Positions 24,455-28,910 of a stretch of 64,000 nt of DNA are shown piece by piece. Location of the stretch: the NCBI RefSeq assembly GCF_056746865.1, contig NZ_CM163382.1, one strand, 5' to 3'. Position 1 is the first letter of the stretch, and each line of letters opens with the position of its first letter. The notes under the pieces are model-generated. The model ran no database searches. It saw only the letters and a list, made by a program, of their open reading frames with translations, and was not told the DNA's origin. Position numbers and translations under genes: made by a program.

Positions 24455-25678
24455 TTGCAGTACCAGTGTAACATGCAGGAAGAGCCCGGGGATTGCCATC
24501 AGCCTCACAACCCCGCTCGAACCGGTTCAGAACCTACAGAAAACACTACAGGAGAAAGCAAAGTGAACCGCCCCGTGTTTCCTGTTTATCATTTTCTGGT
24601 CAGTGCCGCGATTCTGGTATTCGTGGTGATTTTCTGGCGGACACACCATCGCGACCACCGTAACTGGCTGGCTCTACGGCTATTCGTATTATGCTCTGTA
24701 AACCGTTGGCCATTGCGGATGGTTAAAGGAACAGTTGTGGGGACAACTGACACATTACGTGAAATGCAGCGTTATGAACAACTGAGTCAGCACGGGGCTG
24801 ACAACTGGAAAATCCAGCCGGGAGCACCGTTATATGATACGATTGTTATTGTCACTGGTGAGAATGTGCGCAGGGATTATATGTCAGTGTATGGCTATCT
24901 CGTACCAACCACACCGTGGCTGAATACGGCACCCGGTTTATTTATTGACGATTATACCTTGACAGCCTCCAGTACAGTGTCTTCCCTGAGCCGGACACTG
25001 ATTTATGACTATGAGCAGAACCCTGATTCCGGCAACAATGTGGTGGCGCTGGCAGCAAAAGCAGGATACAGCACATGGTGGATATCCAATCAAGGAAAAC
25101 TGGGGGAGCATGACACACGCATCTCTGTTATTGCTTCTGATGCGGAGCATGCCACTTTCCTCAAGAAAGGCAGCTTCGCTTCCCGTAAAACAGATGACAA
25201 ACTGTTGTTACAGGAAACAGAACGTGCGCTGGCGGATACATCCTCTCCGAAGATAATTTTCCTGCACATGATGGGTTCTCATCCAAATCCGTGTGACAGC
25301 CTTAACTCCTGGCCGAATAATTACCTGGAGCAGTATCCCCGAAAAATTGCCTGTTACCTCGCCAGCATCAGTAAACTGGATAACTTTCTTGGCCAGCTTG
25401 ATGGTATCCTTCGCCGGTACTCACATCATTTCGCCATGCTTTACTTTTCTGGCCTTGGGCTGTCGGTCAGCGACAGTGCCAATCCTGTTCATCATTATGG
25501 TCATGTGCAGGGAGGCTACAGTGTGCCACTGATTATTACCGCCAGTGACATAACGTCTCATCAGCCCGTCAGTAGAAAAATCAGTGCCCGTCATTTCGCA
25601 GGTATTTTTCAGTGGATGAACGGTATTTGTACTGAAAATATACCGCCATTCAATCCGCTGACAGACGAAGATAATTAA
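24455..25678 (+). pseudogene. N-terminally truncated paralogue of the sulfatase-domain (phosphoethanolamine-transferase-like) gene at 27408-28910
   Basis: Homology to the full-length copy starts near 24540 (TTGESKVNRPVFPVYHFLVSAAIL versus TTDEAAEFTGMIPVYHFLVSAAIL) and runs to the shared C-terminus (...NIPPFNPLTDEDN). The N-terminal region of about 95 aa is missing. Confidence 0.6.
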
Positions 25679-26078
25679 CCTGTTATGGTTTTTAAGGGAG
25701 AGAGGAATATACCGGCAGACAGTTTGAAACCTCAGCCACTTATTCTTCCTGATCACAGGTAATCATATATGGCAGACTGTAATACAGTCGCTTGTACTGA
25801 AAAGTATTCTGTATAAAATATCCGTATTCATATCAGCACAAGGGACCATCAAATCCCTGCAGCACTCCTTACGTCAGTTATCCCGCATCACCCTGTGAGT
25901 ACAGGATTTTTTATGAGGTTACTTTTTTATTGAATGTATATAAATAATGAATAACCGCGGATTCTGATAATCCCCCCTGCAGGGAGCGGTAAATAGTAAA
26001 TACATCAGTTAATACCGTTTGTCTTTTTTAACAAAGAAAATAATCCTAGAATAATTCCCGGGCATTTGCCCGGGATGA

Positions 26079-26309
26079 TTACTGTTTTAATGGATTATTA
26101 ATCTTTGCATATTCAAATGGACTGATAAACCTTTCTCTGTTTACATCCAGAAAATCGGCCCACCACTGTAGCATAAGTCGACGTTCTTCCAGATGTTCGG
26201 CTTTATGGATATACGCAGCACGTACACCATTACGCTCCTGATGGCTCATCTGACGTTCAGCCGCTTTATCTCGTGCTGTTCTGGTCTCAATACTTCCATG
26301 CCGTTGCAA
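26079..26309 (-). pseudogene. integrase 3' fragment (tyrosine recombinase C-terminus)
   Basis: 76-aa ORF with ...AAYIHKAEHLEERRLMLQWWADFLD, matching the C-terminal end of P4-type integrases (compare ...TYNHALYLDGRREMMQWYADYID in the intact integrase at 39310-40494). Confidence 0.6.
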
Positions 26310-26486
26310 TTACCTCTTAAACCATTCCTTACCATTTTCATGTCTTCGATAAGAAATCTTCATCATGCATGATCGATTTTGTCGATCGATTCGATCGAAT
26401 TTTCTCTTTTTACCCTGTCTTTTGCATGGTTTTAAAATAAGCAACCTTCTTTATCGTGTGGGTAAGAACCAACGGAGATGATTGAA

Positions 26487-27233
26487 ATGAAAAAGGTTAT
26501 TGCTGTTTCAGCGCTTGCTATGGCGGGCGTATTTTCAGCCCAGGCTCTGGCTGATGAGAACAAAACTGGCTTTTATGTGACTGGTAAAGCCGGTGCTTCA
26601 GTTGTGGCTCAGACTGACCAGCGCTTCCGTCAGGACTTGGGGGAGGATGTTTATAAGTATAAGGGCGGCGATAAGAACGATACTGTATTTGGTGCAGGCC
26701 TTGCGGTGGGCTATGATTTTTATCAACATTACAATGTTCCTGTGCGCACGGAAGTGGAATTCTATGGCCGCGGAGCTGCGGACTCCCATTATACACTGGA
26801 TACATGGCATTCTCCGATGGGGAATGGTGGTCGGGAAGACACACAGAACAGGCTCAGTGTGAATACCCTGATGGTGAACACGTATTATGATTTCAGAAAC
26901 AGCAGTGCATTCACTCCATGGGTATCTGTTGGCCTAGGTTATGCACGAGTACATCATAAGGCGACATATACTGATACCTCCTGGAATGAATCTGGCGAGA
27001 TAAGTGATATTTCTGAGTTACATTACTCGGGATATGATAACAATTTCGCATGGAGCATTGGGGCCGGTGTTCGCTATGACGTAACCCCGGATATCGCTCT
27101 TGACCTCAGCTATCGCTATCTGGATGCTGGTAAATCCTCCCTGTCTTACAAGGATGCAGAAGAGGATAAATATAAATCAGAAGTTGACGTTAAAAGTCAC
27201 GACATCATGTTTGGTGTGACTTATAACTTCTGA
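26487..27233 (+). CDS. Tia/Hek(Hra)-family outer-membrane beta-barrel adhesin/invasin
   Basis: MKKVIAVSALAMAGVFSAQALADENKTGFYVTGKAGASV... and the C-terminus ...DIALDLSYRYLDAGKSSLSYKD...YKSEVDVKSHDIMFGVTYNF closely match Tia/Hek as I recall them. The track ORF starts three codons earlier at 26478. Confidence 0.7.
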   Translation: MKKVIAVSALAMAGVFSAQALADENKTGFYVTGKAGASVVAQTDQRFRQDLGEDVYKYKGGDKNDTVFGAGLAVGYDFYQHYNVPVRTEVEFYGRGAADSHYTLDTWHSPMGNGGREDTQNRLSVNTLMVNTYYDFRNSSAFTPWVSVGLGYARVHHKATYTDTSWNESGEISDISELHYSGYDNNFAWSIGAGVRYDVTPDIALDLSYRYLDAGKSSLSYKDAEEDKYKSEVDVKSHDIMFGVTYNF

Positions 27234-27407
27234 CGACACTGCTCCTGAGCGATAATTACACATATTCAGTAATTAAGATATTTATATATCTTCTGCAACT
27301 AAACAGAAATACCCTGCAGTAATATATCGCAGGGTCATTTGTTTCACAGGAGATTTCTGGTTTTTATTATGTTATTCTCTTTATAATAATATTACCGATA
27401 TATTCCG

Positions 27408-28910
27408 ATGAATATCAGAAAACTGTTTTGTCCGGGCAACACACCCCAGATTTTATTGTTTTTATTCTTTTTTATTGTTTCTGTAATAACCACAATTGCA
27501 TGCGGATACACTGAGAAGAATGCCACAGGAAATGTGCTGCTTCTGTTTCTCCTTCTTCTCCTTGCACACAGAAATACCCTCACATCCATTACAGCGCTGT
27601 TATTTCTGTTCTGTTGTGCACTGTATGCGCCTGCCGGTATGACGTACGGTAAAATCAACAACAGTTTTATTGTCGCGTTGTTGCAGACCACAACTGATGA
27701 GGCAGCGGAGTTTACCGGGATGATTCCTGTTTATCATTTTCTGGTCAGTGCCGCGATTCTGGTATTCATGGTGATTTTCTGGCGGACACATCACCGTGGT
27801 CACCGTAACTGGCTGGCACTGCTGCTGTTCGTATTATGCTCAGTAAACAGCTGGCCGTTGCGGATGGTTAAAGGAACTGTTGTGGGGACAACTGACACAT
27901 TGCGTGAAATGCAGCATTATAAACAACTGAGTCAGCACGGGGCTGACAACTGGAAAATCCTGCCGGGAACACCGTTATATGACACGATTGTGATTGTCAC
28001 TGGTGAGAGTGTGCGCAGGGATTATATGTCGGTATATGGCTATCCCGTGCCAACCACGCCGTGGCTGAATACAGCTCCCGGTTTATTTATTGACGGCTAT
28101 ACATCGGCAGCAGCCAGTACCGTACCTTCCCTGAGCCGGACACTGATTTATGACTATGAGCAGAACCCTGATTCCGGCAACAACGTGGTGGCGCTGGCAG
28201 CAAAAGCAGGATACAGCACATGGTGGATATCCAATCAGGGAAAACTGGGAGAGCATGACACACGCATCTCTGTTATTGCTTCTGATGCGGAGCATACCGT
28301 TTTCCTCAAGAAAGGCAGCTTCGCTTCCCGTAAAACGGATGACATGTTGTTGTTACAGGAAACAGAACGTGCGCTGGCGGATAAATCCTCTCCGAAGGTG
28401 ATTTTCCTGCACATGATTGGCTCTCATCCGAATCCGTGTGACCGACTTAACTCCTGGCCGAATTATTACCTGGAGCAGTATCCCCGAAAGATTGCCTGTT
28501 ACCTCGCCAGCATCAGTAAACTGGATAACTTTCTCGGTCAGCTTGATGGTATCCTTCGCCGGCATTCCCGTCATTTCGTCATGCTTTACTTTTCTGACCA
28601 TGGGCTGTCGGTCAGCGACAGTGCTAATCCTGTTCATCATGATGGTCATGTGCAGGGAGGCTACAGCGTTCCCCTGATTATTACCGCCAGTGACATCACG
28701 TCTCATCAGTCCGTCAGCAGAAAAATCAGTGCCCGTCATTTCGCAGGTATTTTTCAGTGGCTGACCGGCATTCGTACTGAAAATATACCGCCATTCAATC
28801 CGCTGACAGACGAAGATAATGAACTCATTATGGTTTTTAACGGAGACAAGAATGTACCGACAGACAGTCTTGAGTCACAACCTCTGATTCTTCCGGGCAA
28901 GGGAAAATAA
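27408..28910 (+). CDS. inner-membrane sulfatase-domain protein, phosphoethanolamine-transferase-like (YjgX-like), 500 aa
   Basis: Hydrophobic N-terminal region of about 150 aa followed by a sulfatase-type domain (VIFLHMIGSHPNPCD, FSDHGLS). Confidence 0.6.
   Translation: MNIRKLFCPGNTPQILLFLFFFIVSVITTIACGYTEKNATGNVLLLFLLLLLAHRNTLTSITALLFLFCCALYAPAGMTYGKINNSFIVALLQTTTDEAAEFTGMIPVYHFLVSAAILVFMVIFWRTHHRGHRNWLALLLFVLCSVNSWPLRMVKGTVVGTTDTLREMQHYKQLSQHGADNWKILPGTPLYDTIVIVTGESVRRDYMSVYGYPVPTTPWLNTAPGLFIDGYTSAAASTVPSLSRTLIYDYEQNPDSGNNVVALAAKAGYSTWWISNQGKLGEHDTRISVIASDAEHTVFLKKGSFASRKTDDMLLLQETERALADKSSPKVIFLHMIGSHPNPCDRLNSWPNYYLEQYPRKIACYLASISKLDNFLGQLDGILRRHSRHFVMLYFSDHGLSVSDSANPVHHDGHVQGGYSVPLIITASDITSHQSVSRKISARHFAGIFQWLTGIRTENIPPFNPLTDEDNELIMVFNGDKNVPTDSLESQPLILPGKGK

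What the first reader, a model, noticed from the sequence alone, without database searches (positions are those of the whole stretch)
24455..28910. Segmental duplication of a sulfatase-domain (phosphoethanolamine-transferase-like) gene, one copy full length and one lacking its membrane anchor
The two ORFs are highly similar across the catalytic domain, but the upstream copy has lost the N-terminal transmembrane region of about 95 aa and is preceded by IS66 debris. The two copies flank the Tia/Hek gene and an integrase remnant, suggesting two related island modules fused here. The intact copy could modify envelope components (lipid A or glucans).
Basis: partly seen in the sequence, partly recalled or inferred. 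Interest (0 to 1): 0.4.

Follow-up and report, generated by a model that had tools for sequence, protein, structure and literature searches.

The report
Known yjgX pseudogene beside intact paralogue
The two similar genes are real, but one is the decayed E. coli pseudogene yjgX and the other an intact island-borne phosphoethanolamine-transferase gene, each carried on one of two related genomic islands stacked at a tRNA gene; this arrangement is common and already annotated.

Summary
Window 24576-25749 and 27721-28894 are an ungapped 1174-bp repeat, 91.5% identical. Both ORFs carry a sulfatase-fold domain of the phosphoethanolamine (PEtN) transferase type.

It is not a local duplication. Synonymous divergence is high (dS 0.23) and only the gene body is shared. 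Copy 1 is the orthologue of the E. coli K-12 pseudogene yjgX: 99.3% identical including flanks, and next to nanX/nanY. It lacks the first 104 codons (three of five membrane helices), has a GAA>TAA stop at 25676, and has lost two invariant metal-binding residues (Asp-His > Gly-Leu). K-12 shares all these lesions and adds a frameshift.

Copy 2 is intact: 500 aa, five membrane helices, all invariant residues kept. Its model matches EptC, MCR-1 and EptA. It belongs to a tia–transferase–TPR module also found at selC islands.

Both copies look like backbone cargo of related P4-integrase islands (Tia/Hek-type OMP > transferase > < integrase) stacked at pheU. RefSeq already annotates copy 1 as a pseudogene, and the literature notes YjgX/YhbX-type genes at pheU, pheV and selC insertions. 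Low interest. The only open question is the substrate of the intact enzyme.

The parts
23765..24094 (-). IS66-family transposase C-terminal remnant (the K-12 'yjgZ' region). It forms the 5' breakpoint context of copy 1.
   Evidence: PF13817 (E 3.5e-10) and PF03050 (E 5e-7). PGAP: 'transposase domain-containing protein, frameshifted, incomplete'. 99.3% identical to K-12.
24576..25762 (+). Copy 1: yjgX-type PEtN-transferase pseudogene. It lacks codons 1-104, has an internal TAA at 25676-25678, and carries D397G/H398L.
   Evidence: 99.3% identical to K-12 yjgX b4575, with the same lesions. PGAP pseudo: 'internal stop; incomplete; missing N-terminus'.
26079..26264 (-). 3' remnant of a P4-type tyrosine integrase (intB-like), convergent with copy 1.
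   Evidence: 96% identical to the K-12 intB 3' end. PGAP: 'tyrosine-type recombinase/integrase, incomplete'. In strain 16843 homology runs continuously from an intact transferase gene into this remnant.
26478..27233 (+). tia (Tia/Hek-family outer-membrane beta-barrel invasin/adhesin), upstream partner of copy 2.
   Evidence: PF13505 (E 9e-23). PGAP: 'invasion outer membrane protein Tia'.
27408..28910 (+). Copy 2: intact 500-aa PEtN transferase of the YjgX subfamily, with five TM helices and a periplasmic sulfatase-fold domain.
   Evidence: AlphaFold model pLDDT 85.5. Foldseek matches EptC, full-length MCR-1 and EptA. PGAP: 'phosphoethanolamine transferase'.
29270..30289 (-). TPR-repeat protein, the third gene of the tia module.
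   Evidence: TPR Pfam hits. Same gene order next to the selC integrase in ETEC1738.
39310..40524 (-). Intact P4-type integrase of the composite island.
   Evidence: ORF. Matches the tyrosine recombinase next to tRNA-Phe in strain 165.
40671..40746 (-). tRNA-Phe (pheU, judged from the flanking yjdC/dsbD/dcuA/aspA-like ORFs), the island's integration site.
   Evidence: ARAGORN. Flanking ORFs.

Best explanation
The two genes are diverged alleles of one island-borne PEtN-transferase subfamily (YjgX type). They were brought side by side by stacking or recombination of two related P4-integrase genomic islands at a tRNA-Phe gene, not by a duplication in this genome. The backbone unit of these islands, read on the window's + strand, is [Tia/Hek-type OMP > transferase > < integrase < tRNA]. 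Unit 1 is KpLE2-like (nanY, nanX, IS66 debris, copy 1, integrase 3' remnant) and is the older, decayed one. Its OMP gene and the first 104 codons of its transferase were replaced by IS66 debris. The gene then accumulated a nonsense codon and substitutions at invariant residues that align with the MCR-1/EptC Asp-His motif. It is the orthologue of the K-12 pseudogene yjgX and is non-functional as an enzyme. Unit 2 (tia, copy 2, TPR gene, then IS remnants, a raffinose-type cluster, integrase, pheU) carries the intact gene. By inference from homology, copy 2 encodes an inner-membrane enzyme with five TM helices and a periplasmic alkaline-phosphatase-fold domain. Such an enzyme would take PEtN from phosphatidylethanolamine onto Thr238, with metal held by Glu200, Asp397 and His398, and pass it to an envelope acceptor. 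The acceptor is unknown; an LPS core or lipid A phosphate is most likely because CptA/EptC are the closest relatives. Shown here: the sequence relationships, the lesions, the synteny and the distribution. Inferred: the order of island accretion, the catalytic mechanism and the substrate.
For: The repeat is limited to the gene body: 1174 bp, 91.5% identical, no flanking similarity. dS = 0.23, dN = 0.053, dN/dS = 0.23. Window 20000-25843 is collinear with K-12 nanY-nanX-(IS4 absent)-yjgZ-yjgX at 99.3-99.7%, and 25838-26259 matches the intB 3' end at 96%. Window 26081-30298 is 99.45% identical to the module [integrase remnant-tia-transferase-TPR] next to the integrase and tRNA-Sec in ETEC1738. 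In strain 16843 (selC) an intact transferase gene plus the downstream integrase remnant aligns continuously with window 24576-26259 (90.6%). Its integrase remnant-OMP-transferase stretch aligns with 26097-28896 (86.5%). Together these show the repeated backbone unit. Decay of copy 1: 24 of 34 amino-acid differences are derived in copy 1, against 8 in copy 2. Five of them hit residues invariant in 15 outgroups. Copy 1 has 27 unique substitutions, against 7 each in two intact alleles. The L139R change falls in TM5. K-12 yjgX shares the breakpoint, the Gly-Leu change and the TAA, and has one further 1-nt deletion. ST131 strain JJ2434 has the same 5' breakpoint with a further deletion next to leuX. 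Copy 2 is intact: typical family length, all invariant residues, five hydrophobic helices. Foldseek gives EptC E 2e-18, and full-length MCR-1 (9nww) and EptA (5fgn) align over about 545 columns. Distribution: the copy-1 allele at >=99% identity is in 1311 records. The 5' TM-encoding part is in 1492 of 5426 genomes. There are up to 5 family places per genome. The whole two-copy arrangement is in 16 genomes. PGAP already flags copy 1 as a pseudogene. PMC6174562 reports that all pheU, pheV and selC insertions it analysed carry putative PEtN transferases YjgX or YhbX.
Against: No copy of the tRNA-Phe 3' end (att-type direct repeat) was found between the units or anywhere else in the window. Stacking by site-specific integration is therefore not directly shown; homologous recombination between integrase or transferase backbones is equally possible. 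Unit 2 has a TPR gene, IS remnants and a sugar-utilisation cluster between its transferase and its integrase, so it departs from the simple backbone. No expression or biochemical data exist for either copy. An SD-like AGGAG lies 8 nt upstream of an in-frame GTG at 24563, so translation of a truncated product cannot be excluded.
Confidence: 0.88

Rival explanations
1. In-situ segmental (dispersed tandem) duplication: one transferase gene was duplicated within this island. The upstream copy was then truncated by IS66 and diverged.
For: The two copies have the same orientation, lie 3145 bp apart, and align without a single gap over 1174 bp.
Against: dS is 0.23. No flanking DNA is shared. Each copy is about 99% identical to a separate allele found alone in many other genomes, at leuX (K-12) and at selC (ETEC1738). 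The truncated allele with the identical breakpoint exists in genomes that lack the tia module.
Confidence: 0.04
2. Copy 1 is a genuine shorter paralogue. It would be translated from GTG 24563 (or GTG 24575) with TM4 as an N-terminal signal anchor, giving a periplasmic sulfatase-fold protein with a non-catalytic or altered role, for example substrate binding or regulation as in PbgA/YejM.
For: AGGAG lies 8 nt upstream of the in-frame GTG at 24563. The TM4-TM5 loop is positively charged, which is compatible with a periplasmic C-terminal domain. The allele is retained at >=99% identity in about 1311 complete genomes. Overall dN/dS between the copies is 0.23. Non-catalytic relatives of this fold exist: PbgA/YejM appear among the fold hits.
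Against: There are about four times more lineage-specific amino-acid changes than in intact alleles, including five at invariant sites. There is a premature stop, and K-12 adds a frameshift. ST131 has deleted most of the gene. The L139R change falls in TM5. The flanking IS66 debris is equally conserved (99.3%), so retention reflects recent common ancestry rather than selection. The low dN/dS is explained by the long functional history before inactivation. The K-12 yjgX deletion mutant was a false positive in a defensin susceptibility screen, and complementation changed nothing (PMC4808223).
Confidence: 0.04
3. The two copies were juxtaposed by one homologous-recombination event between integrase or backbone sequences of a leuX-type island and a selC/pheU-type island, giving a mosaic island, rather than by sequential site-specific integrations.
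For: The integrase remnant is the junction. K-12-like identity drops from 99.3% to 96% at about 25840, and tia-module identity begins by 26081. No tRNA-derived direct repeat is present. The same composite occurs at pheU here and at pheV in strain 165, so the composite moves or recombines as a block.
Against: This is a variant of the best explanation rather than a contradiction of it. The comparator is cut by IS1 at the critical point, so the true junction could not be mapped.
Confidence: 0.3

Closest known systems
E. coli K-12 pseudogene yjgX (b4575) in the KpLE2 phage-like element at leuX
   Same: Copy 1 is its orthologue. It is 99.3% identical including the IS66 debris (yjgZ) and the nanX/nanY neighbours. 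It shares the 5' breakpoint, the Asp-His>Gly-Leu change and the TAA stop.
   Different: K-12 has an extra 1-nt deletion, an IS4 between yjgZ and nanX, and an IS2 between yjgX and intB. Here the unit lies inside a pheU island, with only the last roughly 60 codons of the integrase left.
tia-linked island module at selC, pheV or pheU of ETEC, STEC and ExPEC (integrase remnant-tia-PEtN transferase-TPR protein), e.g. ETEC1738. 'Putative PEtN transferases YjgX or YhbX' are reported at all analysed pheU, pheV and selC insertions (PMC6174562).
   Same: Copy 2 and its neighbours are 99.45% identical to this module. The literature describes a 1503-bp ORF of this kind next to island integrases.
   Different: Here the module is fused to a KpLE2-like unit, and IS remnants plus a raffinose-type cluster separate it from the integrase.
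Characterised PEtN transferases EptC/CptA, EptA/MCR-1 and EptB
   Same: Same two-domain architecture, fold and catalytic motif set (Glu200, Thr238, His340, Asp397-His398 aligned to the MCR-1 and EptC motifs).
   Different: Only 16-22% identity. NCBIfam scores are far below every family cut-off (best is CptA, 108 bits against a cut-off of 404). At 500 aa it is shorter than these enzymes, and no substrate is known. It works like them but is not a member of any of those equivalogs.

Membership tests
PEtN transferase superfamily (EptA/MCR type: PF08019 + PF00884) | C-terminal alkaline-phosphatase/sulfatase-fold domain | tested here: met
   PF00884 E 7e-37 (copy 2) and 6.5e-31 (copy 1). The copy-2 model matches the EptC, MCR-1 and EptA catalytic domains, E 1e-11 to 2e-18.
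PEtN transferase superfamily (EptA/MCR type: PF08019 + PF00884) | N-terminal five-helix membrane domain | tested here: met
   Met for copy 2: PF08019 at 24.8 bits against a cut-off of 22.3, five hydrophobic segments, and full-length alignment to 9nww and 5fgn. Not met for copy 1, which lacks codons 1-104 (TM1-3) and has L139R in TM5.
PEtN transferase superfamily (EptA/MCR type: PF08019 + PF00884) | Catalytic Thr nucleophile and metal ligands (MCR-1 E246, T285, D465, H466; numbering from general knowledge) | tested here: met
   Met for copy 2: E200, T238, H340 and D397-H398 align with the GE, T, H and DH motifs of EptC and MCR-1 and are invariant in 15 outgroup relatives. Not met for copy 1, which has D397G and H398L.
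PEtN transferase superfamily (EptA/MCR type: PF08019 + PF00884) | Demonstrated PEtN transfer to an envelope acceptor | not testable with these tools
   No biochemical data were found for YjgX-type enzymes in the literature searches.
Specific equivalogs EptA, EptB, CptA/EptC, MCR-1..13 (NCBIfam) | Score above the curated family cut-off | tested here: not met
   Best hit is the CptA subfamily at 108 bits against 404. EptA scored 58 against 561, EptB 53 against 493, and MCR families <=33 against about 1250.
Orthologue of K-12 pseudogene yjgX (copy 1) | Near-identity, conserved synteny and shared inactivating lesions | tested here: met
   99.3% identity over 2579 bp including flanks, with nanX/nanY adjacent. 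Shared breakpoint, Gly-Leu change and TAA.
In-situ segmental duplication | Recent origin within this genome: low dS, shared flanks, no independent distribution of each copy | tested here: not met
   dS 0.23. The repeat is confined to 1174 bp of coding sequence. Each allele is found separately in other genomes.
tRNA-associated P4-integrase genomic island with tandem accretion | tRNA gene, adjacent intact integrase, internal integrase remnant, and repeated backbone genes | tested here: met
   tRNA-Phe at 40671-40746. Integrase at 39310-40524. Remnant at 26079-26264. Repeated OMP-transferase-integrase unit.
tRNA-associated P4-integrase genomic island with tandem accretion | Direct repeat of the tRNA 3' end marking the junction between units | tested here: not met
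   With up to 3 mismatches allowed, the 23-nt tRNA-Phe 3' end was found only in the tRNA gene itself.

The most novel reading that the evidence does not exclude
The intact tia-linked gene may represent an experimentally uncharacterised PEtN-transferase subfamily, distinct from EptA, EptB, CptA and OpgE. It travels as a two-gene cassette with a Tia/Hek-family outer-membrane invasin on P4-integrase islands. The pair is kept in Salmonella at 58% (transferase) and 47% (OMP) identity. The enzyme might decorate an envelope acceptor, such as the LPS core, lipid A or even the partner OMP. That could tune adhesin function or cationic-peptide resistance in about a quarter of E. coli genomes.
Probability: 0.15. 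Interest if true: 0.4.

Novelty: already known. Interest (0 to 1): 0.12.

Why it matters
It matters little. The pseudogene is a catalogued K-12 feature, and both genes are already named in RefSeq annotations of matching genomes. The useful outcome is a corrected reading. This is not a fresh duplication that could be dated. It is a scar of island stacking: two allelic backbone genes of related tRNA islands, one long dead. The residual value is that the intact YjgX-type enzyme has no known substrate. The 5' membrane-domain part of the gene is present in about 1492 of 5426 complete E. coli genomes. If the enzyme modified lipid A or the LPS core, it would bear on polymyxin and host-peptide resistance in pathogenic lineages.

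Tried and rejected
(1) I searched for an att-type repeat of the tRNA-Phe 3' end to prove sequential integration and found none. (2) I tested whether OMP-transferase pairing is a deep, family-wide linkage. It holds in E. coli islands and in one Salmonella relative. It does not hold in six other contexts: an IncI-like plasmid, Enterobacter lignolyticus, Erwinia and three metagenomic contigs. The pairing is therefore restricted to the island clade. (3) Literature searches for yjgX, for yhbX plus phosphoethanolamine, and for tia plus PEtN transferase found no functional study. They returned only a negative K-12 mutant control and island surveys. (4) The inverted-repeat search around the copies found none, so there is no intact IS bracketing either copy. 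(5) The promoter/terminator scan was not above shuffled expectation for promoters (14 found against 10.4 +/- 3.3), so I draw no expression claim from it. (6) I tried to map the exact junction between the two units. The ETEC1738 comparator is cut by IS1 at 26081, so the junction can only be placed between about 25840 and 26260.
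Full report
**Observation**

The region holds two same-strand ORFs, 24455..25678 (407 aa) and 27408..28910 (500 aa).
- They are 88% identical over 379 aa without gaps.
- At the DNA level the repeat is 24576-25749 versus 27721-28894: 1174 bp, 91.5% identical, ungapped.
- A self-comparison of the whole window shows no similarity outside this stretch.
- Both proteins hit Pfam Sulfatase PF00884. Only the long one hits the EptA/EptB N-terminal membrane domain PF08019.
- Between them lie an integrase 3' remnant (26079-26264, -) and tia (26478-27233, +).
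- Upstream of the short copy are IS66 transposase fragments (PF13817, PF03050).

104 codons are missing, not about 95. That removes three of five hydrophobic helices, so TM4 and TM5 remain. The first 40 codons of the 407-aa ORF are unrelated read-through.

**What copy 1 is**

Window 20000-23276 and 23265-25843 are collinear with E. coli K-12 nanY-nanX and yjgZ-yjgX at 99.7% and 99.3% identity. The K-12 IS4 and IS2 insertions are absent here. Window 25838-26259 matches the 3' end of K-12 intB at 96%. Copy 1 is thus the orthologue of the annotated K-12 pseudogene yjgX (b4575) of the KpLE2 element.

Besides the 5' truncation it carries:
- a GAA>TAA nonsense codon at 25676-25678, with DNA homology to copy 2 continuing 71 bp further;
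- substitutions at five positions invariant in 15 outgroup relatives: S201N, S233L, R346S, D397G and H398L.

D397-H398 align with the SDHG motif of EptC and MCR-1. From general knowledge these are the MCR-1 D465/H466 zinc ligands.

The pattern of change points to decay on the copy-1 lineage. Of 34 amino-acid differences between the copies, 24 are derived in copy 1 and 8 in copy 2. Against a third, intact allele (P0002), copy 1 has 27 unique changes, compared with 7 and 7 for the two intact alleles.

K-12 yjgX shares the breakpoint, the Gly-Leu change and the stop, and adds a 1-nt deletion. ST131 strain JJ2434 keeps only 158 bp behind the same breakpoint, next to leuX. This is an old pseudogene that is still decaying. 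RefSeq/PGAP already labels it 'phosphoethanolamine transferase; internal stop; incomplete; missing N-terminus' in strain 165, which has the same arrangement.

**What copy 2 is**

Copy 2 has the typical family length (500 aa), keeps all invariant residues and has five hydrophobic helices.
- By sequence, the closest solved protein is the E. coli EptC periplasmic domain (E 1e-17); MCR-1 matches only weakly.
- NCBIfam places it nearest CptA, but far below every curated cut-off: 108 bits against 404 for CptA, 58 against 561 for EptA, and 53 against 493 for EptB.
- An AlphaFold model (pLDDT 85.5, pTM 0.79) matches EptC (E 2e-18). It also matches full-length MCR-1 (9nww) and Neisseria EptA (5fgn) over about 545 aligned columns.

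It therefore has the architecture and motifs of a PEtN transferase but belongs to none of the characterised equivalogs. It is a member of a separate, roughly 500-aa subfamily. Relatives occur in Salmonella (58% identity), Erwinia (49%), Pantoea and Enterobacter lignolyticus (about 39%).

**Why this is not a local duplication**

- Synonymous divergence between the copies is dS = 0.23 (dN 0.053, ratio 0.23). From general knowledge this is several-fold above core-genome divergence among E. coli lineages.
- Only coding sequence is shared.
- Each copy is about 99% identical to an allele that occurs on its own elsewhere. Copy 1 matches K-12-like genomes: 1311 records at >=99%, which match copy 2's 5' region only from position 27721 onward. 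Copy 2 with tia and the TPR gene matches a module next to the integrase and tRNA-Sec in ETEC1738 at 99.45%.

**The repeated island backbone**

Strain 16843 (selC island) shows the underlying unit.
- An intact transferase gene plus the integrase remnant downstream of it aligns continuously with window 24576-26259 (90.6%).
- Its integrase remnant-OMP-transferase stretch aligns with 26097-28896 (86.5%).

The backbone of these islands is [Tia/Hek-type OMP > transferase > < integrase < tRNA]. K-12 shows the same convergent transferase/integrase pair at leuX.

Reading the window leftwards from tRNA-Phe gives the following order:
- tRNA-Phe (40671-40746; pheU, judged from the yjdC/dsbD/dcuA/aspA-like ORFs beyond it)
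- integrase
- a raffinose-type sugar cluster
- IS remnants
- the TPR gene
- copy 2
- tia
- integrase remnant
- copy 1
- IS66 debris
- nanX and nanY

So two related units are stacked, and the tRNA-distal one has decayed.

I could not show how they were joined. No tRNA-derived direct repeat is present, so homologous recombination between backbones is as likely as sequential integration. The same composite sits at pheV in strain 165.

**How common it is**

- Half of the 5426 complete E. coli genomes carry at least one family member, and some carry up to five.
- 1492 genomes have the 5' membrane-domain part.
- 478 genomes have the integrase-OMP-transferase stretch at >=80% coverage.
- 16 genomes have the full two-copy arrangement. 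The closest is chicken isolate CM2, at 99.8-100% identity.
- A survey of STEC islands states that all analysed pheU, pheV and selC insertions contained putative PEtN transferases YjgX or YhbX (PMC6174562).

**Function**

Nothing experimental was found for the intact enzyme. The K-12 yjgX deletion mutant was a false positive in a defensin susceptibility screen, and complementation had no effect (PMC4808223). That fits a dead gene.

By homology I infer that copy 2 transfers PEtN from phosphatidylethanolamine, via Thr238 and a metal centre (Glu200, Asp397, His398), to a periplasm-facing envelope acceptor. The acceptor was not determined. An LPS core or lipid A phosphate is the best guess, given the CptA/EptC affinity.

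The pairing with a Tia/Hek-type OMP recurs in a Salmonella relative: the transferase is 58% identical and the OMP 47%. It does not recur in six more distant contexts. It therefore looks like co-carriage on one island lineage rather than a deep functional coupling.

**Could copy 1 still make a protein?**

An AGGAG lies 8 nt upstream of an in-frame GTG at 24563, so translation of a truncated two-helix product cannot be excluded. Several points make a retained function unlikely:
- the lost Asp-His pair;
- the arginine introduced into TM5;
- the premature stop;
- the excess of lineage-specific changes;
- further independent damage in K-12 and ST131.

**Verdict**

The feature is real, ordinary and already annotated. 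The family assignment and the island-fusion idea are right, and the 'segmental duplication' label is wrong. Interest is low. The only open point is the substrate of the intact YjgX-type enzyme.

Noticed in passing
window 9705-11015, 13364-14674, 18679-19989: Three copies of a 1311-bp IS3-family element, 99.8-100% identical to each other. Matching genomes annotate it as IS1203-like or IS3-family. They lie within about 10 kb around a type I restriction-modification locus and could drive local rearrangements.
   Followed up: partly
window 31569-39160 (- strand): A raffinose-type sugar-utilisation cluster sits between the pheU integrase and the tia module. It comprises a LacI-type regulator, an alpha-galactosidase (708 aa), an MFS transporter, a GH32 hydrolase and a carbohydrate porin.
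   Followed up: no
window 18678-40794 versus NZ_CP020509.1 (L004): The same 22-kb composite island (99.3% identical) is attached to tRNA-Phe at pheU in this window (yjdC/dsbD/dcuA/aspA side). In strain 165 it is at pheV (yqgA/speC side). The whole composite has therefore moved or recombined between the two identical tRNA-Phe genes.
   Followed up: partly
window 1-229 and 2556-2972 versus 30299-30924 (inverted); 2205-2270 versus 31003-31068: Inverted copies of IS1-like and other IS fragments (92-100% identical) lie at the left edge of the window and just right of the TPR gene. They could mediate inversion of the intervening 28 kb or so.
   Followed up: no
window 24545-24565: An SD-like AGGAG lies 8 nt upstream of an in-frame GTG (24563), just before the homology breakpoint of the yjgX pseudogene. 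It is a possible start for a truncated two-helix product.
   Followed up: partly
window 27312-27370: A hairpin (CCCTGC...GCAGGG, 27312-27334) followed by a T-rich tail lies after tia. A promoter-like site (TTCACA-16-TATTAT, 27343-27370) lies before copy 2. This suggests copy 2 may have its own promoter rather than being strictly co-transcribed with tia.
   Followed up: no
L008 5001-6536 (NCBI GCA_021080065.1 contig): A 52%-identical family member (P0020, cluster of 1955 sequences) sits in a conjugative-plasmid-like context with DotM_C, an exclusion protein, repeated hok/gef loci and a SNase nuclease. The subfamily is therefore also plasmid-borne.
   Followed up: no
L006 1-4721 (strain 16843, selC island): A dptFGH phosphorothioation-dependent restriction (Dnd-type defence) cluster lies directly beyond the integrase remnant-OMP-transferase unit in a related selC island.
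   Followed up: no
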